Below are positions 520 through 58,487 of a stretch of DNA of 64,000 nucleotides, in pieces (the stretch's first letter is position 1; the number at the start of each line of letters is the position of its first letter). This DNA comes from Eledone cirrhosa (lineage: Eukaryota): assembly GCA_964016885.1 (NCBI GenBank), contig OZ024745.1, positions 54,560,001-54,624,000 on the forward strand. The letters are read 5' to 3'. The translations under genes were made by a program, and so were the position numbers. The notes below the pieces were generated by a model, which ran no database searches, was not told the DNA's origin, and was given only the letters and a program-made list of their open reading frames with translations.

Positions 520-524
<5 letters not shown>

Positions 525-728
525 AACGAGTAGGACCCCGACGGCTGAGCTCAAGCCGTTTCGACGGCTAATTCTGGACTAAAATGATTTTAGTCCAGAA
601 TCAGCCGTCGAGACGGCTTGAGCTCAGCCGTCGGGGTCCTACTCGATCCTATTACCCACTCTACTACCCTAAGTATCGAGTACTTTGGTGCGTTATGGTC
701 CACCTGGTTCCTTACCACATTTCCTTCG

Positions 729-731
<3 letters not shown>
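520..731 (+). mobile_element. Short (TA)n-embedded repeat, family A copy 1; fold-back palindrome 520-652 with half-hammerhead (probable Penelope-like element 3' end)
   Basis: Near-perfect palindrome centred on g586. Same sequence recurs at 43160, 45444 and 58060. The left arm (minus strand) reads GAAA-cggct..agccg-TC-ggggtc; the plus arm has GAGA. Flanked by (TA)n on both sides. Confidence 0.75.
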
Positions 732-760
<29 letters not shown>

Positions 761-765
<5 letters not shown>

Positions 766-1820
766 AATAATGGAGCTGCGGCGTTGCAAATGGGTTACAT
801 ATAAAAAAGGGGGGGAGTCCTTCATCAGTGACCCTCCAACCGTCCCAGGCATTTCATCGCTTTAAGGGCCATATACCTCAGGTTGGTGCGAACAACGGCT
901 AAAAAAAGTCGTTGGGACACGTAAATAAAGAGAACGTTAGGGTGAACAAACAAAATGGTTTAAGCAACAGAAAGTGAGAGGAAAGAGACAAGTCCCAGAT
1001 TTCTATGAATATAAACTCGATAAAATCGTGAACTACTAGAGAATAAAGACCATCGGACCTGGTTGAAATGTGAGTAAGGAAGGAATTTCTCACAGGCCTA
1101 ACGGGAGGAAGAAGAAGAAGGGGTCTGGTGTGCGAATTCGGTAAACATAAGTTTTGTGAAGACGCAGACGAGAGGGAGAGAAAAAAAATTCATACCGGCT
1201 TGGCCAAGAGTGCGCGAGAAAAGGAATCGGACAGGTCAAGCGGGAAGAAAGAGGAGTGGGGGAGAGGTAGTGACAGGGTATGAGTGAGTGAAAGTTGAGG
1301 AAGAGGCTAACAGAGAGAGAGACTGCTAGAAAGGGTAAAGATACAAAGAGAGAAACAGACGGGTGGCAGCAGAGGAAAAAATATGTGTAAATATGATAAT
1401 AATGGAGCTGCGGCGTTGCAAATGGGTTACATATAAAAAAGGGGGGGAGTCCTTCATCAGTGACCCTCCAACCGTCCCAGGCATTTCATCGCTTTAAGGG
1501 CCATATACCTCAGGTTGGTGCGAACAACGGCTAAAAAAAGTCGTTGGGACACGTAAATAAAGAGAACGTTAGGGTGAACAAACAAAATGGTTTAAGCAAC
1601 AGAAAGTGAGAGGAAAGAGACAAGTCCCAGATTTCTATGAATATAAACTCGATAAAATCGTGAACTACTAGAGAATAAAGACCATCGGACCTGGTTGAAA
1701 TGTGAGTAAGGAAGGAATTTCTCACAGGCCTAACGGGAGGAAGAAGAAGAAGGGGTCTGGTCTGCGAATTCGGTAAACATAAGTTTTGTGAAGACGCAGA
1801 CGAGAGGGAGAGAAAAAAAA
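761..1820 (-). mobile_element. Partial tandem duplication with 632-bp period (761-1392 plus 1393-1820); pseudo-LTR-like retroelement fragment
   Basis: Near-identical direct repeat (identical 64-aa ORFs at 899 and 1531); second copy truncated; flanked by (TA)n. The Penelope-like assignment and the strand are inferred from architecture. Confidence 0.6.
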
Positions 1821-3178: not shown

Positions 3179-3585
3179 AATGTTAACTAATATATATAAC
3201 TAATGATTGTTTTCAACATAGAAATCGTTAGTTGTGACATTGAAACATTTTCCTGTGCGTCATTTATACTAGTTTTCACGCTGCATTTATTGTAACCATT
3301 CGGATATCACCAACACATATCTCTACATGTCAGAAATAATTTCTGTAACATTAATGTCCTTACCACCACTTGTTTTGAACCAATAAATTATGGCCTTTTT
3401 AACATACTACCTTACGCTCTCCTTTTCATTTTAACTTATTTTTATAGCATGTGGAATGTTTGGACGTATGTACGAACAAGAAACCGTTTGGTAAAACCTG
3501 AATAAGTCACACGATATACATGTTGACCGTAGTAGAAACATATCAATATTTAAAATGTTATATATATTGACAGAAGTAAAATAAT

Positions 3586-3772
3586 TGTTTCTACTTTTGG
3601 CACGAGGCCAGCAATTATCCAGTGCCTTACTGGTACTTTATTTTATCGACCCCGTAAGGATGAAAGGCAAAGTAAACCTCGGTGGGATTTGAACTCAGAA
3701 TGGCAAGGACCGTAACTCTATGTGTCAAAGCATGGCCTCCGACCCTCTACCGATACTGCCAATCCAGCGCCA
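3586..3772 (-). mobile_element. tRNA-derived SINE (Meta/MESC-domain-like core), full length with 20-bp TSD
   Basis: Minus strand has A-box-like tggcagtatcggtag, B-box gagttcaaatccc and core gcctttcatccttacggggtcgataaaataaagtaccag. TSD attgaca(g/a)aagtaaaataat at 3566-3585 and 3773-3792. Confidence 0.9.
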
Positions 3773-12434: not shown

Positions 12435-12627
12435 TATTTAATTAGAAAGTGAAAAACACAAAATATAACTACTCCATTACCAAAGGTTTCTGGATCACAG
12501 ACAATAATCGGTCGTCAGACACATCTGTCTGACAACCGATCCAGTCGTATATTGTTATTGTCTGTGATCCAGAAACCTTTAGTAATGGAGTAGTTATATT
12601 TTGTGTTGTTCACTTTCTAATTAAATA
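12435..12627. repeat. Fold-back palindrome (family B) with half-hammerhead and nested hairpin
   Basis: About 70-bp arms; minus arm reads tccaGAAAcctttgGTAatggag; inner hairpin atcggtcgtcagaca/tgtctgacaaccgat. Confidence 0.8.
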
Positions 12628-12743: not shown

Positions 12744-12837
12744 GTGGAACACTGGAAGGTAATAACCGTAGTGGTAGAGCACTCAGTCCAAGGGACGAGT
12801 TAGGTAGAAGTGGTTACACAACAGTTAGTTCACCATA

Positions 12838-12877
12838 CCGAGAACAATTGTTTCACCTTCGCGGATCTTCAGCTCGG
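12838..12877 (-). ncRNA. Minimal type I hammerhead ribozyme (sense to the element)
   Basis: Reverse complement reads ccgag CTGAAGA tccgcgaaggt GAAA caattg TT ctcgg. Confidence 0.75.
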
Positions 12878-13061
12878 GATGTGTATGGTTATAGGAACAG
12901 GAAGGACAACCGTACGAACGCGCATGCGCAGAAACTCGGTCACTTCATACAGGCAATACTAGACTGCGTGCGGGAGGTGTAAGGGAGATAACTGCGAAAG
13001 TCCGGAAAGTTTTTAGGTTGAAAATAAAATTAAAAGAAATTAAAAATAAAATTACAAAGAA

Positions 13062-13345
13062 TCAGTCCGGAGCCTTGTAGTTATGCAATAGATGTTTGGT
13101 GACGTGTGGACAACGTGTGAAAAATTCACTCCTCGTGTTTAGGCAATCACTATTGCGTAATCTCTTTAGGATAGTTATTCGTTCGTCGATACATAAGCCA
13201 CACGTCGGATTTCCCCCTGCGTATGGCTTGTACTTAGTGATGGCTTTCCATTGAATGGAGTAGCCTATACTTGAGTCCTTGAGGGACCATACGTGGCTCG
13301 CGAGTTTCGTGGATGAACGTCTGTCCGGGTGTCTGAAAAATGGTG
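13062..13345 (-). pseudogene. C-terminus of Penelope-type GIY-YIG endonuclease
   Basis: STKLASHVWSLKD..IQWK..CGLCIDERITIL..LNTRSEFFTRCPH matches the PLE endonuclease tail (CxLC..E..LN.R.E...C.H). Confidence 0.8.
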
Positions 13346-13569
13346 GTTCAAACATCTATTGCACAACTACAAGGCTCCGAACTGATTCTTTGTAATTTTA
13401 TTTTAAATTTCTTTTAATTTTATTTTCAACCTAAAAACTTTCCGGAATTTCGCAGTTATCTCCCTTACACCTCCCGCACGCAGTCTAATATTGCCTGTGT
13501 GAAGTGACCGAGTTTCTGCGCATGCGCGTTCGTACGGTTGTCCTTCCTGTTCCTATAACCATACACATC

Positions 13570-13609
13570 CCGAGCTGAAGATCCGCGAAGGTGAAACAAT
13601 TGTTCTCGG
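13570..13609 (+). ncRNA. Minimal type I hammerhead ribozyme (inverted pseudo-LTR copy)
   Basis: Stem I ccgag/ctcgg, core CUGAAGA and GAAA, palindromic stem III aacaattgtt, GUU triplet. Confidence 0.75.
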
Positions 13610-14025
13610 TATGGTGAACTAACTGTTGTGTAACCCCTTCTATATATCTATATCTATATATATATATCTATATATATCCAGGGAGTGTAACTATAGGTTC
13701 ACCCAGGTGACCACTCGATGTTTAAGTTCACGTCAGTATCGAGGTGTAGAGCTAGACAGAGTGTAATATAATAATACGGTTAAGCCTTCATTACGTTTAT
13801 TGGTGACGCGCCTTCTCTATTTTCTACAGTCTTCACAACACTAGCTTCATACCACATTTCCATATTTGTGTGTGTATATATTTATATATATATATATATA
13901 TATTATATATATTTTCATACACTAACCTCATACCACTCCTATCACCTTACTAATTCCCTATACCGCATGTCCCCTTTAACTATGTCTACATCCCACCCAT
14001 ATATATATATATATATTTATTATAT

Positions 14026-18340: not shown

Positions 18341-18546
18341 TTAAAGTACATATAATGTGAAAGAACTTATTCGTTGGGGAAAGGAAACTATACCTAATCA
18401 TGGGTTTATATTTACATATAACGATTAGCAGGGATAAAATTACATCATTTGTTTTAGGTTACACTTAGCAATTTCTCGCATATATTTTCTTAGCGGAGGC
18501 AATGAGTATTGCATCAAAATGTTCATGTCAATACATCTAACAATAT

Positions 18547-18729
18547 AATTGTTTCTACTTTTTGGCACAAGGCCAGCAATTACCCAGTGTATTACTGGTA
18601 CTTTATTTTATCGACCCCGTAAGGATGAAAGGCAAAGTTAACCTCGGCGGGATTTGCACTCAGAATGGAAAAGGTCGTAACTCTTTGCGTCAAAACATGG
18701 CATCCGACCCTCTACTGATACTGCCGAAT
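18547..18729 (-). mobile_element. SINE copy
   Basis: Full family match. Confidence 0.9.
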
Positions 18730-19797: not shown

Positions 19798-21172
19798 GTA
19801 CAGTTAATGATAAGCAAATAAGAGAAAAGCTCTTATGGCCTTGACAATGCAGTGTGAGGAGAGCTTGTCTATAATTGAACGTTGTAAAGCAAAGGATATA
19901 TTTAGAAATTACTTGTTCTCATCACCGAAGTATATTCATTTTGCAAGTTGACTGAACTAAAATTACAAGGAAAATACATCGAAAATAGGAAATAAATGAT
20001 GCACTGATTGTGCAGTTATATAATATTACATAAAATGATACAAGATATAGAAGTGACAATATATATGTATATGATATACTGAACAAGCTCTATGTTTTTT
20101 AGCAGAAATACATAACGTTGTCATTAGCAGGTAAGGAAAAGAGTAGTGGAAGATGGCTACTGGTTTTTATACAAGTTATATTACCAGAAAGTAGTTCTAA
20201 AATATCAAGATTAATCGAAATGTCAGAAAACTAAAATAGTGTCTGTTCAAATATAAATCACTACAGTACAAATCTCTACATTCGGAATTTAATATAAAAT
20301 TTTCCACATACTGAAGAGATTAAAACATAAAGATTAAAACTTAGTGATTAGATATAAGGGTTTTACGACATTTCAGCTTGATATGATAGATTACAGTTCT
20401 AACGTTTGGAAAATTCCGTGTCTATAAAATCGGTACGTCGCCTACTAAACACTGCTTGACTGCTGTTGATCGCTTTTTCTGTATGTATAACACATTTACC
20501 CATCACCGCTCGAAACATCGAGATGTATAAACTTATTTTAATATGCATGTCTTACTTTTATTAATCATATGTAATTTCCTTCAAGTCATTTTATTTATTA
20601 TTATATTATCACCCTAAAATTAGATTATTCGATTTTATTGCGGCTTTTACTAATCTTTGCGATAAGAAATATTCTCGTTATAATTGCGAAATATGTATTT
20701 CTATTAATAATATGTATGTATGTGTTGAGCGGCGGATGCATGTATATATCTACGTACGGATTTGTGTTTGTATGTATCTTTGAATGCATACATGTGTGGA
20801 TGGATGCCTGCATGTCTGAATGTATTCTAAACACATTCCCTGCATGAGTATGCGTATACTGAGTGGAATAGTGACTTCGAAGTTTCAGTTTGGTCGCTTC
20901 ATGAGGCAGCCAGATGAAGCGAATAAAAAGAAATGTCTTATCAAAGCTACTTTTCTACTCAGCCTACCTACAAGTATTGGGTGGTATTTCATGTATTGCT
21001 TTAATGTTTTTATATACTGCCGTATTGTAATATATATCATATATGCACATTTATAAACTCATTTTATTCAGAATCTGCCGTAATACAAATTTCTATGGCG
21101 TTCATGATTAAGCAATGCAATCATTACGGAACCACCAACACGACATCATCAAATGCAATCTTAAGTAATAAC

Positions 21173-21356
21173 TGTTTCTACTTTTGGCACAAGGCCAGCA
21201 AATACCCAGTGTATTACTGGTACTTTATGTTATCGACCTCGTAAGGATGAAAGGCAAAGTTAACCTCGGCGGGATTTGAACTCAGAATGGCAAGGGAAGT
21301 AACTCTATGCATTAAAGCATGGCGTCTGACCCTCTACCGATACTGCCAATCCACCA
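21173..21356 (-). mobile_element. SINE copy with 17-bp TSD
   Basis: TSD caatcttaagtaataac at 21156-21172 and 21357-21373. Confidence 0.9.
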
Positions 21357-27854: not shown

Positions 27855-28036
27855 TGGATTGGCAGTATCGGTAGAGAGTCGGACGCCATGCTTTCCAGCA
27901 TAGTTACGTCCCTTTACGATCTGAGTTCAAATCCCGCCGAGGTTGACTTTGTCTTTCATCCTTACGGGGTCGATAAAATAAAGTACCAGTAATGCACTGG
28001 TGGATTGCTGGCCTTGTGCCTAAAGTAGAAACAATT
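27855..28036 (+). mobile_element. SINE copy
   Basis: A-box-like, B-box gagttcaaatccc, core and tail present. Confidence 0.9.
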
Positions 28037-28609
28037 ATCATAATATATTCAGAATTATTTTGGAGAAATAAAAGCCGAGATGGTCAAGATAGGATTATTT
28101 TTCGATATGGGTCTCTTCGCATCAATGCCAAACAATCACTAGCATGACTACTGCCATCGCTACTATTACAACCAGCATAACGATCTTCCCGAACTGTTAT
28201 GTTCTCACAATCACCATCACGCCAATAACACAGCCAGCTCTACTATAACTTCAATAACAACATCATCAATCATCACCCCACCCAGTTATTTATAAACAAC
28301 CACTACCACAACTGCACGAGCACCTACAACATTATCAGAACCACAAACAGAGCAAAAACAACACTGAATCCACAACCCCTATCACCACCCATATTACAAA
28401 GACTGACGTCAGTATTGTCCCTCTGAAACCATCACTACAGCTACAATAATCACCACCACCACCACCACCATCCTCACCACCACAACCAGCCACGCCACAA
28501 CTTGCACTAACAACCCCTCAACCACCGATACCAACATCAGCAGCACGACTATCACACGTCCAACATTAATCTGGCATTATGCCTACATACCACCACGCAA
28601 TGCCAGACT

Positions 28610-33741: not shown

Positions 33742-33927
33742 GGGGCCGTGGATTGGCAGTATCGGTAGAGAGTCGGACACCATGCTTTGAAGCATAGAGT
33801 TACGTCTCTTTATGATCTTTATGATCTCGCCGAGGTTAACTTTGCCTTTCATCCTTACGGGGTGGATAAAATAAAGTACCAGTAATGTACTGAGTTTTTG
33901 ATGGCCTTGTGCCAAAAATAGAAACAT
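33742..33927 (+). mobile_element. SINE copy (B-box region rearranged)
   Basis: Family head, core and tail. Confidence 0.85.
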
Positions 33928-34571
33928 TTAATTTGGTAATTTGTTTTCAAACTCGCGAAATCTAGGCACCTTTAGAGGCATCCATTACAGGCTTCATCGT
34001 AACTGTATACTTGGGTTGTGATAGTTTTTGAGAGCGAACAGTGTCACTAATTGCTCCATCTCCCCTAGTATCTTACCCAAACTCCGTCTGATTTATTTAT
34101 TGTATTCCCTACTTTTGAACGAAAATAGGGTATGATTTGAGGGAGAATTTCACGTTATATCTAGCAGAGCATGCGACAGCTTACTTCGTATAACCGAAAT
34201 TAAGGTTATTGATAATTATGTCATTCTTAATTGTATTGTTCTTCCCAATCAACTTTTTTCCATATCAACATTTATGAACTTATGAAGAATACAATTTGAA
34301 AATATAAGAGATGCTTGTAAGATTAACAATTCGTAGCTCTACCAAAGGTAAATCCTAGAAGAACAGTTGGCGCTTAGAATATACGTATTATGTTTAACAC
34401 AGAAAACATAACAGATAAAAGTTAAGTAATTATTAATACATTAATTCCTTTCATACAAACGGTAACCTGTGGAAATGTTTGTATGTTCTCCGTGTTTAAC
34501 TTCGCAGCTTTAATTGCTGACTTTACAGGATTTAAGTTTGACTTTCGGGTATTCTATTCTATAATAATATT

Positions 34572-34706
34572 TACACATTGCTTTGCTAAAGTATGGTGAA
34601 ATTCATATGTATGTATATATATATATATATACATACATATGAATTTCACCATACTTAAGCAAAGCAATGTGTACACATTGCTAAAGTATGGTGAAATTCA
34701 TATGTA
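34572..34706. repeat. Forward-reverse-forward local duplication centred on (TA)n
   Basis: Palindrome 34572-34673 followed by a third, direct copy. Confidence 0.9.
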
Positions 34707-35265
34707 TATATATATATATATATATATACATATATACATGTGTGTGTGTGTGTACATGTGTGTGTGTGTGTTTGTGTGTGTGTGCGTGTGCGTGTTTGTG
34801 TAGAAACCTACTTCCATACCGCCACATACATACACATATAAATATATACGCCGGGCTCCATATTATCATGATCTATAATACTACTACAGCTACTACACTC
34901 AAACATACACACACACACACGCGCGTGAGCACAGCAGACATTCTCGGAAAAGAGAGAAAAAGAAAAAACACCAAGATAATGAAAAATAATAATTCATGAG
35001 ATATTGGATAGAATTTTCAAGAAAATTCTCATATATTTTATCTGTTTTTGAGTCTACATTTTTCACTTTACGCAGACATACACTCGAACTATATAATACA
35101 TAAAATACGTTCGTATATCTTTTCTCTCTCTGTCTCTATCTCTCTCTCTCTCTCTCTCTCTCACCCTCTCTTTCTCTTACCCCCCCCTCTCATACACAAA
35201 CACACACTCGCACAGGGGCACATACATATGGGTACACATAACTAGAAACAAACATTCATAGTCGA

Positions 35266-41832: not shown

Positions 41833-42553
41833 TAATTGTTTCTACTTTAGGCACAAGGCCAGCAATTTGAAGTGGAGGTAAAATTCGATTAAATCGATAC
41901 CAGTACGTTACTGGTACTTTATTGTATCGACCCCCCCTGAGGATGAAAGACAAATCTAAACTCGGTAGGATTAATAATTATTTCTATTTTAGGCACAAGG
42001 CCAGCAATTATCCCAGCGCATTACTGGTACTTTATTTTATCGACCCCGTAAGGCAAAGTTAACCTCGGCGGGATTTCAACTCAGATATGAAAGGGACGTA
42101 ACTCTATGCTTCAAAGCATGGTATCCGACTCTCTACCGATATTGCCAATCCACGTAGGATTAATAATAACAATATCTATAAAATTATCATGTTGATGATG
42201 ATGGTGGTGTAGATGTAAATAATAATTGCAATAACACACACATACACACACACATAGACATATTAATGAAATGGTGAGAGAGGTGTTATTGATGAACTAG
42301 TTCATAATAATAATTATTTCTACTTTTGGTACTTTATTTTATCGACCCCGTAAGGATGAAAGGCAAAGTTAACCTCGGCGGGATTTGAACTCAGACCATA
42401 AAGGACCGTAACTCTTTGCTGCAAAGCATGGCGTCCGACCCTCTAATAATTGTTTCTACTTTAGGCACAAGGCCAGCATTTACTCAGTGCATTACTGGTA
42501 CTTTATTTTATCGACTCCATAAGGATGAAAGGCAAAGTCAACCTCAGCGGGAT
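41833..42553 (-). mobile_element. Cluster of four nested or adjacent SINE copies
   Basis: Copies at about 41833-41970, 41980-42152 (TSD gtaggattaataat), 42312-42445 and 42449-42553. Confidence 0.9.
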
Positions 42554-43159: not shown

Positions 43160-43163
<4 letters not shown>

Positions 43164-43404
43164 ACCAAGTATGAACCCGACGGCAGAGCTCAAGCCGTTT
43201 CGACGGCTAATTCTAGTCCAGAATTAGCCGTCGAAGCGGCTTTAGCTCTGCCGACGGCTAATTCTGGACTAGAATTAGCCGTCGAAACGGCTTGAGCTTT
43301 GCCGTCGGGGTCATACTTGTTCCTATTACCCACTCTACTACTCTAAGTATTGAGTACTTTGGTCGTTATGGTCCATCTGGTTCCCTACCACATTTCCTTC
43401 GTTA
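43160..43404 (+). mobile_element. Family A copy 2, double fold-back
   Basis: The ctaattctggacta/tagtccagaattag segment is inverted twice; GAAA at 43284-43287, GTC at 43304-43306; (TA)n flanks. Confidence 0.8.
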
Positions 43405-43601: not shown

Positions 43602-44345
43602 TACGAGAGGGCAAGGCAGCACCTCGTTGATGTATATAGGCGTGTTGGTTATGACCTTGGCTGCTCTTACATACTTGTTTGAACATGATCGATTGAACGA
43701 GTCATGAATTATTGCTGTTTATAACCTCTGTTACGTTTACAATGCAGGAAAATATCGAATAACGGTACGCGATCAAATTTTGTGTGAAACTCGACAAATC
43801 TAATTATTTAACACAAGCTTATGGTGATGTCACTCTATCCAGAAGTAAGATTTTTAAGAGGTACAAAATTTTTAAAGTGGTCCGAGAAAATGTTGAAGAC
43901 GAATCTCGTTCTGGAAGCCCAATCTCAACAAAGGAAGAAAAAGTGGAAGCAGCATTGTCCAAAAAATCGCCGATTCACTGTTCGAATAACTGCTGAAGAA
44001 ATGGGCTTGGATAAAAATGTATTTCACACAATTTAATCAGCCCATTTGCACCTGCAAAAAATTTGTGCGAAGCTAGAGCCCTAACACGTAACTTGGCAAA
44101 GAGCTACTCGGCGAGAAGGATTCAAAATTGAACCAAATTTCTGGGATAAAGTAATAACAGGAGATGAATCATGGGTGTTCGAAGACGATCCAGAGACAAA
44201 ACGGCAAAGTGAGGAGAGGCATACGAAAAGTTTTTCTTGTCCGAAGAAAGCACGTATGAGCAGATCCAGGGTGAAAACAGATGCTTATCATTTTTTTCAA
44301 GTGCCCTCGTATTGTTAACAAATATATTTTACCTCCTGGCAGTTA
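43602..44345 (+). mobile_element. Mariner transposon 5' part (decayed transposase)
   Basis: MQENIE*RYAIKFCVKLDKS..QAYGD..LSRS..VEDESRSGSP; VITGDESWVFEDDPETKRQS..PKKARMSRSRVK (first catalytic D). Confidence 0.9.
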
Positions 44346-45346: not shown

Positions 45347-45584
<238 letters not shown>

Positions 45585-46016: not shown

Positions 46017-47165
46017 TTAGATTGGTCCTAATTTTAGGGCATTGAGTACTGGTTGAAATGTATTAATGAAATGTGTTTCCTTTTTGGTGCGTTGGATGAA
46101 AGTAACGTTGTCTATGAATTTGTAAATGGGGAAAATATTAAAGTTTGGAAGTTGGTTGAGAGCACAATTGGCGATATGTTCACTAAATGAAATCTTTCTG
46201 TATTCCTGTATTTTAATTTGTGATTTATGGACGGTCATACGTTGACGGAGGCTGTTTTTTGTCTGTCCTATGTAGTGCTCTTGACAACCTGAGCAAGTAA
46301 AAACATAGATAAGGTTTTCAGATGCACATGTAAAGTTGTGTTTAACTGTGAAACGTTGTCCTTGTTTAAAATGGAATGTTTAACCTTCTACTAGATTTAT
46401 GCATATGCCACAGTTGGGCCTTCCGCATTTTGTTACTGTAGGGTTTATTGTGAGGGTTTGTTGGATTTTGGTTTGTGTGAGCATGTCTTTTATGGATTTG
46501 GGTTGTCTTTTGCTCTTTATAATGTTGTGTGTTTGGAGGATATTGTTCATTCTTGGGTCTCTTTTTAGTAAAGGAATGTTCTGGATCTAATGCCTCATTG
46601 TTGAGGGGGTTGTGTGTGGAGATGTATGGTAGAGTTTTTTTGTTGCGGCTCACTCCTGGGTTTGGGGTGTCTGAGTTCCTGGATGTCTAGTTTTAGGGCA
46701 CGCTGGAATCCATTGGTGATTAGGGATGGTGGGTAGTTTCTGCTTATAAGTGTGTTTTTTAATTCTTCTAGTCGTGTGTAGCATGTGTATTTATCTGAAA
46801 CTATTGTGCAGATCCTTCTGGCTAGGTTATAAGGAATTGCCATTTTGGTATGTCGAGGGTGGCACGAGTTGAATGGGAGGTATTGTTTGGAGTCTGTGGG
46901 TTTGTAGTATATGTCTGTTTCTATTTTGTTGCTTGTTTTCTTGATGAGGATGTCGAGGAAAGGGAGTTGTTCATGGCTGTAATCCATTGTGAATTGTAAG
47001 TTAATGTTGTGCTCATTCAGAAGGGTTTTGAACTCAAACAGTCTATCTATACTTTCATGCCAGAGGATGAAGCAGTCCTCCAGATATCTCTTCCAGTTCT
47101 TTTCTATGGGTTGGTAGACGTGGTTGCCGTATTTGTCTAGAACTTTGCGGTAGAGAATGGTTTCC
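46017..47165 (-). pseudogene. PLE reverse transcriptase C-terminus/thumb plus GIY-YIG endonuclease (disrupted)
   Basis: WKRYLEDCFILW, LPFLDI, YYKPTDSKQYL.F.SCHP; linker KCGRPNCGIC; TCASENLIYVFTCSGCQEHYIGQT..LRQRMTVH; contains stops and frameshifts. Confidence 0.9.
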
Positions 47166-47324
47166 AAATACTTTTCTTCCACATTGACTTTTTACGTTCC
47201 ACATTTAGCACGTTTTTTTTCCTTTTTCTTTTTCCTTTTCACTTCTTAAACCTTGTTTGTATATAAGATTATTCTTTCTGCACCTTCTGTTTAACATGTG
47301 CGACACCACACTAATACATTTCAG

Positions 47325-50298: not shown

Positions 50299-51463
50299 TA
50301 ATGGATATGGTAAAGAAGAAGATATATATATGGATAAATATATTGTTTTGTTTCATTGGACAAGATCTTAATAATACTTGGATTTGATCGGAATGTTGTG
50401 CATTAATTCTGCACATGATGCATAAATTACATATTATGGATTACATATCATAAGGAAATATTTTGCGCAATGGTTTATTTATTTGGCTCACTTCAACAAC
50501 CTATTGATTTCTAAATACTAATTAAGTCATAGGAATTTTTGAAGGGCTGATTCCACATTGTAAACAACAATAACATTACAAACTCTGACACTGTGTGTAA
50601 TTTAGAGATAGGTGGCACCGCCTGTGCTAATATTTGACAAATATATTATATGGAAAAGAAATCATTAGTTAAATCCAAGCCAATTGCATTAGAAAACTCT
50701 ATCGCTACATTTATTTTAGTAAGTTATACAGAGGTCATTGTTAACGAAAGCAACAGAAGCACTAAACACGTATTCACAAACGAATATAACAAAACCAAGG
50801 TAAGTAAACAGCTCTTGAATTCGAACGACTATTATCTTCTTAGACTTCAGTTTGGACTAGCAGAAGCGATCATTTATCACGTCACTTGATCAATGTGTTC
50901 AAATGATGTGTCAATGAAAATAAGTAGGAAAGAAGAAGAAAATAAAGGAAAGCTTTTAACTATAAATATATTACAAATAGAGAAACAAACTAAAGTATAT
51001 TGTTTAAGTAACAATATCTAAATCTTTAAACTGTCAATTGGTTATATCTTTCAGGACAAAATGTCTGAAGTTTCAGGAGGACATTCATCAAATATCTGTA
51101 AAAAAAAACACTGGAATGAAAAATTGATGCTACTCGGGTAATTGGTTTCAGAGAGATGATTGTTATTCACAAAGAAATTCAACTAATTTATCGATGGACA
51201 TCACTGTCAACAATTTCTTGAATTCTGCTCTTTCCCTCACTTTCTCTCTGTCACTAAAATTACACGAACGCGCGCACACACTCTCTCACACACGCACACA
51301 CGCACACACAGACACACACTTACAACTATATATATATATATATATATATATCGTATTAATAACATTCCATATGATTGTATCAATGTTGCCAAATATACGG
51401 TGATGTCCATCGCGACATTTGCACCACTGAAGGCATGTTGATATAAATAGGGTAGCCCAATAT

Positions 51464-51648
51464 AATTGTTTCTACTTTTGGCACAAGTCCAGCAATTATC
51501 ACAGTGTATTACTGGTACTTTATTTTATCAACCCGTAAGGATGAAAGGCAAAGTTAACCTCGGCGGGATTTGAACTCAGATTGTAAAGGGCCGTAACTCT
51601 ATGTTAAAAACATGGTGTGCGACTCTATACCAATACTGCCTATCCACC
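51464..51648 (-). mobile_element. SINE copy
   Basis: Full family match. Confidence 0.9.
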
Positions 51649-57330: not shown

Positions 57331-58059
57331 AAACTCATACACAGCTTTTCTCTCAAATATGATATACCGAGTCTGATACAGTTTGATCATGCTTATAAAG
57401 GATTTGTCATATTTTTCTCAGTTCTTTATGCTTATTTTGAAAGAGTAGTGTTCCTAATTCATGTGTGTATTAACGTTGCAAATCTTACATAGTTCCTTCT
57501 GCAGATTAAGAATGGTCATACTAGTGGTGTATTTTTAATACAGTACATAAAGAAAAGAAAAGAGATACGACTACATTAGTTGATAGTACGACAATTCTGT
57601 ACAGAATTTCGTACAAAAGAAGGCTAATAACCGTAGAAGCTATACTGATATAGGAATATAAGTCTAAGATTAATGAAGCATATGTGAAACTAATTAACAT
57701 AACTTCCATGTTCGATTAAGAAATTTGAAATTAGGTTCCAACTATCACCTTCCACACCCATATTACTTTACAAACACTCAAAACCATGTAAGAATGACGT
57801 CAAAAGTATAACAATTTTGATTCCGGAGATGAGACCATAAATGTTTCGAAACAATACACACATCGATTTAGAAACGCTACTGCTCCAATCCAAGCTTTAA
57901 CAAAATACGACAATTCCTAAATATAATCTGGAGTACTTTTGTGTTTTCAATATAGAATATATATATATATATATATAGTAATAATAATAACTTTGAAGAC
58001 TAAATCTGTTATTTTAATGTTATTTTAATATATATATATATATATATATATGAAACAAA

Positions 58060-58230
58060 TCAGGACCCCGACGGGTGAACTCCGGTCATTTCAACAGCTA
58101 GATCCGATCTAGCTGTCGAAATGGCCGGAGCTCAGCCGTCGGGGTCCTGACTCTTTTCCTACTACCTACTCTACTACCATAGTATCGAGAACTCTAGTGC
58201 GTTATGGTCCACCTGGTTCCTTACCACACT
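58060..58230 (+). mobile_element. Family A copy 4 (diverged subfamily), fold-back
   Basis: Palindrome centred on agctagatc-c-gatctagct; GAAA at 58118, GTC at 58138; same 3' tail. Confidence 0.75.
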
Positions 58231-58487
58231 TATATACATTGTAGATGGTGATTTAAAGAAACTTCGGAGAATGTCGGTGAGGGCCTTTCTGTGACTTAAA
58301 CATTAACCATTGGGAGGTACAGAAAAACCTAATCCAACATTATCTAAAATTTTCCTCGGATTCTCTGGACAATGGATAAATATTACCAAGGTGGGATTAT
58401 CTCACTTTCTTTCTATTTCATTCATTTTCGTCCTCATATTCACTGAACCCCATCTCTCCGTTTCTTCAATAGAGTTTGTTGCCTGAC

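What the first reader, a model, noticed from the sequence alone, without database searches (positions are those of the whole stretch)
520..731. Family of half-hammerhead elements that all break or fold back at the same point (4 copies)
Seen: four copies (520-731, 43160-43404, 45444-45584, 58060-58230), all in or next to (TA)n, share an about 140-bp unit reading ...ttagccgtc GAAA cggct-tgagctc-agccg TC ggggtc..., i.e. GAAA, stem III with a palindromic gagctc loop, a GUC triplet and a stem I strand. None has the CUGANGA half. All four stop just upstream of GAAA; three continue as the reverse complement of themselves (one twice) and one ends in (TA)n. Copy 4 has a different stem sequence but the same architecture. 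Known: Penelope-like elements carry type I hammerheads and often show inverted 5' truncations. Inference: a long perfect stem II in the parent makes nascent cDNA snap back during reverse transcription, replacing the catalytic 5' half with a mirror image; alternatively this is a non-autonomous hairpin element cleavable in trans by RNA that supplies CUGANGA.
Basis: partly seen in the sequence, partly recalled or inferred. Interest (0 to 1): 0.8.

Follow-up and report, generated by a model that had tools for sequence, protein, structure and literature searches.

The report
Short hairpin copies of Penelope-like retroelement
The four half-hammerhead repeats are short, mostly head-to-head insertions of one very abundant and recently active Penelope-like retrotransposon whose long copies carry a whole hammerhead motif with an unusual core (UUGANAA), and they likely all end at the same spot because the element's RNA begins there, inside the ribozyme, so that reverse transcription runs off the RNA's 5' end.

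Summary
The four copies are real. They are short inserts of a Penelope-like retrotransposon (PLE): 3.5-kb unit, intact 717-aa RT + C-terminal GIY-YIG ORF with every Hydra-clade motif checked, tandem arrays 99.8-100% identical, 63,548 exact cores genome-wide. The parent holds the missing half, but as UUGANAA (U3-A8; 5,559 hits), with a covarying helix II of about 10 bp and a 33-nt loop, not CUGANGA plus a long perfect stem. The break hotspot is real: 70 of 100 unselected arms end 5-16 nt upstream of helix II's 3' strand. Snap-back is refuted as the general route: 11 of 46 tail-less arms carry a core their partner arm lacks. Full-length copies do not stop there (at most 1 of 31), while mini-tandems jump from that point to RNAs starting at it again; an initiator-like TTAGT and an excess untemplated G mark it. 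Best model (inferred): two cDNAs primed at +46 and +126 run off a capped RNA 5' end inside loop II and are joined head-to-head. Ribozyme activity is untested; 1,409 arms have a mismatched C3-A8 core. No RNA data were available.

The parts
523..583 (-). Copy 1, tail-less arm: from about -15/-17 (loop II) through GAAAC, helix III, GUC, to the TTCC end (+46), then (TA)n
589..729 (+). Copy 1, tail arm: -15 to +126; core reads GAGAC at 610-614; predicted cleavage site C632/G633; 80-nt tail; (TA)n follows
   Evidence: (unit 3404-3543, 93.6%)
43162..43214 (-). Copy 2, tail-less arm, 5' end at -7
43215..43270 (.). Copy 2, internal inverted duplication of the head-to-head junction (secondary rearrangement, inferred)
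   Evidence: second junction is the reverse complement of the first
43271..43402 (+). Copy 2, tail arm, -7 to +126
   Evidence: 91.7% to the intact unit
45446..45584 (-). Copy 3, single tail arm, -13 to +126, (TA)n on both sides
   Evidence: identical copies elsewhere in the genome; 95.7%
58052..58105 (-). Copy 4 (older subfamily), tail-less arm, 5' end at about -7
58106..58231 (+). Copy 4, tail arm from about -6, tail ends about 7 nt short; helix II 3' strand GATCTAGCTG matches the parent subfamily with CAGCTAGATC

Best explanation
The four copies are short insertions of a recently active Penelope-like retrotransposon with Hydra-clade protein motifs, and they likely end in hammerhead loop II because the element's capped RNA begins there and its reverse transcriptase runs off that 5' end. 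Shown: the 138-nt unit is the junction between the 3' repeat (pLTR) of one element and the start of the next; it holds the 3' half of a U3-A8 hammerhead motif and two sharp 3' ends, +46 and +126. Inferred: the GIY-YIG nuclease cuts (TA)n; both DNA ends prime cDNA on RNA from one source, one at +46 and one at +126 (the two internal start sites shown in vitro for another PLE); on a linear transcript that starts near -12 each cDNA is only about 58 or 138 nt long, a strong-stop-like product; the two 3' ends are joined head-to-head by 0-4 nt microhomology or short filler, giving the hairpin. Long and tandem copies read seamlessly through the whole motif and so come from another RNA form with no 5' end at -12, most likely a circle or a multimer transcript (inferred). 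Whether the ribozyme cleaves, in cis in multimers or with its halves supplied by the two ends of one transcript, is untested.
For: Parent and ORF: seven complete 717/719-aa ORFs seen in two arrays, units 3,531-3,543 bp, 99.8-100% identical; motifs conserved in relatives; best fold match TERT, E 1e-8; GIY-YIG in 5 and RVT_1 in 4 of 82 alignment members. Unit is the tail-to-ORF junction: (404 junctions). 3' ends: 42 at +46 and 30 at +126 of the 100-core sample. Hotspot: 70 of 100 arms end at -5 to -16, 20 extend 30 nt or more. One source: both arms of the same subfamily in 50 of 51 typed pairs, 0.20 expected. Physical 5' end: 15 of 30 short-bodied junction copies jump from the hotspot onto a piece that ends in the first 65-822 nt of the body, and where that piece's own core is kept it begins at the hotspot again (7 cases); at most 1 of 31 independent long junction copies stops within 19 nt of the core against 77 of 100 overall, P 4e-14. 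T(T/C)AGT/A at -14..-10 in 100 of 108 complete copies, both subfamilies, none with G at -13. Base before A(-12): G 27, A 8, C 11, T 54 of 100 against G 9, A 11, C 14, T 66 at -10, P 0.006; untemplated G is attributed to copying the cap in L1/SVA (PMC3287187).
Against: No RNA data: the start site is inferred from DNA only. About 10 of 24 inspected G cases can be read from the partner arm (by eye), so the cap signal is weaker than the raw count. Ends spread from -5 to -16 with peaks at -6, -9, -11/-12 and many reach -13 to -16, beyond the proposed +1, which needs start-site spread or microhomology. No full-length copy ending at -12 was found although a linear mRNA would predict some. Long copies are survivors and might pass a roadblock more easily. 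The initiator consensus is recalled, and I saw no match to a downstream promoter element at the usual distance (by eye). In D. virilis Penelope the start lies upstream of the whole hammerhead (PMC2377424 and PMC4209133 taken together). 1,409 arms have C3-A8, and five long junction copies of that type also read through, so ribozyme-made circles cannot be assumed.
Confidence: 0.6

Rival explanations
1. The RNA has a physical 5' end in loop II, but it is made by processing (a nuclease cutting at the top of helix II, or another maturation step), not by transcription initiation.
For: Explains the hotspot, the jumps from it and the spread of ends equally well; the site is where helix II opens into the loop.
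Against: Does not predict the excess G before A(-12) nor the T(T/C)AGT kept in both subfamilies while the rest of the loop diverges.
Confidence: 0.17
2. Reverse transcriptase stalls on RNA structure (helix II and its loop, or a bound protein) on a continuous template, and both arms fall off at the same obstacle.
For: Ends begin right after the 3' strand of helix II; helix II is conserved by covariation; the enzyme has no obvious RNase H (not tested beyond the fold search).
Against: 35 of 40 long junction copies cross the same sequence a second time, and none stops at -5..-16; a block should act at the base of a stem, not after it has been copied.
Confidence: 0.13
3. One reading: the nascent cDNA snaps back and copies itself, replacing the catalytic 5' half by a mirror image.
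For: Both arms share the subfamily in 50 of 51 pairs; the tail arm is the longer in 30 of 57 short pairs; junctions show microhomology.
Against: In 11 of 46 short tail-less arms the partner tail arm stops before the core, so neither arm can be a copy of the other; the tail-less arm is longer in 16 of 57 pairs (centre deletions of palindromes could account for some) and by kilobases in L126 and L134; the second arm ends sharply at +46; the parent has no long perfect stem; single arms such as copy 3 break at the same place.
Confidence: 0.05
4. The hairpin unit is an independent non-autonomous element (or DNA-transposon end) that amplifies as a hairpin.
For: Some junctions recur exactly (copy 1's junction also in L001).
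Against: Junction length and sequence vary from copy to copy; the recurring junction occurs on different subfamily backgrounds; every subfamily of short copies examined has a long parent; the sequence is the pLTR-ORF junction of an RT element, not a terminal inverted repeat.
Confidence: 0.05

Closest known systems
Hydra clade of C-terminal EN+ Penelope-like elements (Craig et al. 2021, PMC8557442; includes Hydra-1_Obim)
   Same: Single ORF, RT then GIY-YIG; RW(K/R), DKT, CxCx5C linker, CxxC and CxH around the EN end, no CCHH; (TA)n targets; inverted 5'-truncated copy and tail.
   Different: Unit 3.5 kb with a 1.2-kb 3' UTR (described members mostly under 3 kb); tail 80 nt (30-40 reported); the 25 Hydra families listed in their file S2 have CUGANGA cores and short helix II, here U3-A8 with 54-56 nt between the core halves and a 6-bp helix III; tens of thousands of very young copies, about three in four of them cut at one site.
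U3-A8 minimal hammerheads of Schistosoma mansoni PLEs (Cervera and de la Pena 2014, PMC4209133)
   Same: Same covariation in the catalytic core, long helix II, short helix I, location in the pLTR.
   Different: Those are minimal, dimer-type motifs; this one has a stable helix III, folds as a monomer by minimum free energy and has a 33-nt loop II; Rfam does not detect it.
Poseidon PAc of the green anole (Frangieh et al. 2024, PMC11167929)
   Same: Two internal reverse-transcription start sites that bound the tail, at the pLTR-ORF junction; both DNA strands cut and extended; AT-rich targets.
   Different: Other clade; the paper (parts read) reports no fixed 5' end of genomic copies and found ribozyme cleavage dispensable in vitro.
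Retroviral/LTR minus-strand strong-stop DNA (recalled, analogy only)
   Same: Priming near the RNA 5' end gives a short run-off cDNA that must be extended on another template region.
   Different: No tRNA primer, no integrase; here the short products are themselves integrated in pairs by target priming.

Membership tests
Penelope-like element (EN+) | Single ORF with telomerase-like RT and GIY-YIG endonuclease | tested here: met
   717-aa ORF; YRDD, VIY-YIG conserved in relatives; model pLDDT 94, top fold match TERT 3du5; Pfam finds nothing in the ORF itself but GIY-YIG in 5 and RVT_1 in 4 of 82 members
Penelope-like element (EN+) | Tandem/partial-tandem pLTRs, inverted 5'-truncated copy, tail at one end | tested here: met
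Hydra-clade PLE | RWK-type motif, DKT, CxCx5C linker, CxxC and CxH in the EN | tested here: met
   RWR 37, DKT 117, CNCPDRSIC 572, CNLC 670, CKH 698 against the description
Hydra-clade PLE | C-terminal EN lacking the CCHH motif | tested here: met
   No CxxC between VIY and YIG; the one C is A in 55 of 60 relatives
Hydra-clade PLE | Insertion in (TA)n | tested here: met
   95 of the 100-core sample reach TATATA within 200 nt, most at +46 or +126
Hydra-clade PLE | RT phylogeny places it with the named Hydra families | not tested
   No named reference proteins were available as tool sequences; the 10 relatives looked up carry no informative name
Naiad/Chlamys PLE | N-terminal GIY-YIG | tested here: not met
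   EN lies at residues 591-700
Canonical type I hammerhead (CUGANGA) | C3-G8 core | tested here: not met
   8 hits against 5,559 U3-A8 and 1,409 C3-A8; patterns differ slightly at the 3' end
U3-A8 type I hammerhead variant | Three helices around UUGANAA / GAAA / UH, with N7 free and G10.1-C11.1 | tested here: met
   91.7% of 630 cells paired, three covarying pairs in helix II, slid controls 24-51%; N7 takes all four bases; exact hammerhead fold by MFE in 2 of 6 copies folded, near it in others, not in L007. Covariation rests on two or three subfamilies, so few independent events
U3-A8 type I hammerhead variant | Self-cleavage after GUC | not testable with these tools
   Indirect only: 4 of 30 short-bodied junction copies join at +28/+29, the predicted site; a stall at the base of helix III would look alike
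Non-LTR retrozyme | Tandem non-coding monomers each with a complete hammerhead | tested here: not met
   Short copies are head-to-head and lack the 5' half; definition from bioRxiv 10.64898/2026.07.22.740005

The most novel reading that the evidence does not exclude
This PLE starts transcription inside loop II of its own hammerhead, so a monomer transcript has a half ribozyme at its 5' end that is completed only by the UUGANAA half from its 3' end; uncleaved linear RNA yields paired strong-stop cDNAs (tens of thousands of hairpin inserts), while cleaved and circularised RNA yields full-length and tandem copies. The genome thus records the two RNA states of the PLE cycle and a built-in full-length check.
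Probability: 0.25. Interest if true: 0.82.

Novelty: new variant of a known kind. Interest (0 to 1): 0.58.

Why it matters
How PLEs make pLTRs, tails and inverted 5' copies, and what their hammerheads do, is called open in both PMC8557442 and PMC11167929. This family is young, intact and has tens of thousands of copies with two fixed 3' ends and one fixed 5' end, so the template RNA can be read from DNA and each step tested with one small protein and a 200-nt RNA. It also shows a large class of PLE hammerhead motifs that CUGANGA descriptors and Rfam miss, and a source of over 13,000 near-perfect genomic hairpins. If the start site proves wrong, what remains is an ordinary new Hydra-type family with a known core variant.

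Tried and rejected
Rfam: no hammerhead family among the 150 listed of 219 window matches and no match at all on a complete parent motif. CTGANGA upstream of the core: 39 hits; the 30 inspected were fold-back fillers, flanks or other repeats, none a parent. Pfam and PDB sequence searches with the ORF alone: nothing; profile: one weak retron RT. Sequencing runs: no RNA holder listed. One search used a misregistered structure string and is void; one search is the corrected count. The gapped extents overrun by microhomology (values 16-19); one search gives exact-match extents. Automatic classes were corrected by eye (L355, L356, L373 run through; L251-254, L375/376, L389/390 each counted once; 4 long copies that stop in the tail left out of the 31). 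The 57 pairs and the 69 pairs (51 typed, 18 dropped as rare types) come from loci fetched for several reasons and are not a random sample. A splice-acceptor reading of TTTAG/CAG was considered and dropped: no constant upstream exon is seen. Earlier findings: none returned. PMC5785218 was not held. Host species was not determined.

Full report
Numbering: 0 is the first G of GCCGTC in ...GCCGTC GAAAC...; negative numbers lie upstream; the predicted cleavage site is +28/+29.

Observation. The window belongs to a 3.0-Gb assembly in which the exact core GCCGTCGAAACGGC occurs 63,548 times (control 1) and head-to-head pairs with a spacer of at most 30 nt occur 13,443 times (control 0). The 40 best-scored matches to copy 3 are 99-100% identical. 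The breaks in the window lie at -6 to -17, a narrow zone rather than one base.

Parent. Longer copies gave the upstream sequence. It is not CTGANGA (39 hits within 36 nt, the 30 inspected being fillers or flanks) but CCCC-TTGANAA, 54-56 nt before GAAA: 5,559 hits, control 11. Fifteen long loci showed an ORF with RT and C-terminal GIY-YIG (output partly cut). Two head-to-tail arrays have units of 3,531-3,543 bp, 99.8-100% identical, with intact 717-719-aa ORFs, so activity is very recent. The protein has RWR, DKT, CxCx5C, CxxC and CxH and no CCHH, the features given for the Hydra clade (PMC8557442 section 11), whose members also target (TA)n. It has 800 relatives at E below 1e-30 among cluster representatives; an alignment-based model (pLDDT 94) matches TERT best. 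No tree with named references was built, so clade membership rests on motifs.

Hammerhead motif. In 30 complete natural copies chosen across subfamilies, helix I (5 bp), helix II (10 bp, one bulge) and helix III (6 bp) are 91.7% paired, with three covarying pairs in helix II between the main family and copy 4's subfamily (the parent of copy 4 was found). Position 7 takes all four bases. Two of six copies folded give the exact hammerhead as minimum-energy structure, and the 5' half cofolds with copy 3 into the same shape. U3-A8 is a known natural covariation in S. mansoni PLEs (PMC4209133). Against activity: 1,409 arms carry C3-A8 and only 8 carry C3-G8; single changes in the 3-8 pair abolish cleavage in PAc (PMC11167929), and that G8A does so is recalled, not found (0 papers). 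For activity, weakly: 4 of 30 short-bodied junction copies join at +28/+29.

Hotspot. In the first 100 exact cores on contig C1 (all examined), 70 arms end at -5 to -16, 10 at 0 to -4 and 20 extend 30 nt or more; 16 extend 200 nt or more. 3' ends are sharp: 42 at +46, 30 at +126, bounding an 80-nt tail, as the two in vitro start sites bound the tail of PAc. The tail runs straight into the 5' UTR and ORF in tandem copies (404 junctions), so the short unit is the pLTR-ORF junction, the region where PAc starts reverse transcription.

Snap-back. Both arms share the subfamily in 50 of 51 typed pairs, which fits snap-back or one source RNA. But 11 of 46 short tail-less arms are joined to a tail arm that stops before the core, and the tail-less arm is longer in 16 of 57 short pairs and by kilobases in L126 and L134. 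Neither arm can then be a copy of the other. Both were templated by RNA (inference). The parent has no long perfect stem II.

Roadblock or RNA end. I examined 70 of the 404 junction copies. Of 40 with at least 1.4 kb of body, 35 run upstream through the 5' half of the motif, 4 stop in the tail, 1 stops near +2; after collapsing arrays, at most 1 of 31 stops within 19 nt against 77 of 100 overall (P 4e-14). Of 30 with a short body, 15 are mini-tandems in which a unit starting at the hotspot is preceded by a piece ending 65-822 nt into the body. This is what template jumping from a physical 5' end would give. The hotspot sits on T(T/C)AGT, kept in both subfamilies, which resembles the arthropod initiator (recalled). 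The base before A(-12) is G in 27, A in 8, C in 11 of 100 listed of 5,146 hits, against G 9, A 11, C 14 at -10 in 100 listed of 3,212 (counted by eye, P 0.006); no complete copy has G there. About 10 of 24 G cases inspected can come from the partner arm, and several pairs have G on both arms. Untemplated G is attributed to cap copying in L1/SVA (PMC3287187). PLE promoters lie in the pLTR (PMC2377424; PMC6765202), though in D. virilis upstream of the hammerhead.

Model. Cutting in (TA)n; priming at +46 and +126 on RNA of one source; run-off at a capped end near -12; head-to-head joining with gaps of -4 to +2 nt in 38 of 57 pairs. Copy 3 kept one arm; copy 2 later duplicated its junction. Long copies need a template without that end, a circle or a multimer. 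Shown: anatomy, counts, parent, structure conservation. Inferred: priming mode, start site, cap, circle. Untested: cleavage, expression (no RNA holder listed).

Literature seen. PMC8557442: abstract, passages, section 11, supplement search and part 2 of 59 (files S1 Hydra sheet and S2); the other 58 parts, with consensus sequences, were not read and may hold a related family. PMC4209133 and PMC11167929: parts 1-2 of 4. PMC2377424, PMC6765202, PMC3287187: passages. PMC12029980: abstract and section 2.1 (not used). bioRxiv 10.64898/2026.07.22.740005: part 1 of 5; its supplements are closed. Seven searches listed no paper describing a fixed 5' break inside a PLE hammerhead, a U3-A8 motif in a Hydra-type element, or a start site in loop II; subscription journals and repeat databases were not searched, so the family itself may be catalogued.

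Verdict. Real; a new variant of a known kind. Identity as short inserts of a Hydra-type PLE about 0.95; run-off at a capped 5' end 0.6; full split-ribozyme and circle model 0.25. Interest 0.58.

Noticed in passing
window 12798-13649: Another head-to-head insert (arms about 300 nt, 97% complementary) of a different family, with a complete canonical CTGAAGA...GAAAC motif on each arm (12850-12872 -, 13575-13597 +).
   Followed up: partly
window 46598-47191 (-): 198-aa open frame resembling a PLE RT thumb region of another family (by eye; no Pfam hit), 1 kb from copy 3.
   Followed up: partly
window 763-1180 and 1395-1812: 418-nt direct repeat, 99.8% identical, starting just after copy 1's (TA)n.
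   Followed up: no
window 3580-3766, 18545-18725, 21168-21353, 27855-28038, 33748-33930, 41974-42153, 51459-51646: A 185-nt SINE-like repeat family, 83-90% identical, at least seven full copies plus fragments.
   Followed up: no
window 34566-34707 and 12435-12627: Other near-perfect palindromes, one centred on (TA)n.
   Followed up: no
window 43770-44300: Decayed sequence that looks by eye like a mariner-type transposase; not confirmed by any search.
   Followed up: no
L266-L267 (G000:C1:91.47-91.49 Mb) and L268-L269 (G000:C1:437.20-437.22 Mb): Arrays of four or more intact head-to-tail units, 99.8-100% identical, candidates for rolling-circle products or active sources.
   Followed up: partly
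L358, L386, L353, L260: Mini-tandems joined at the predicted ribozyme cleavage site (+28/+29); in L358 and L386 both junctions lie there.
   Followed up: partly
L339-L350 and 1,397 further hits: Whole subfamilies with a mismatched C3-A8 core amplified, including long copies that read through the motif.
   Followed up: partly
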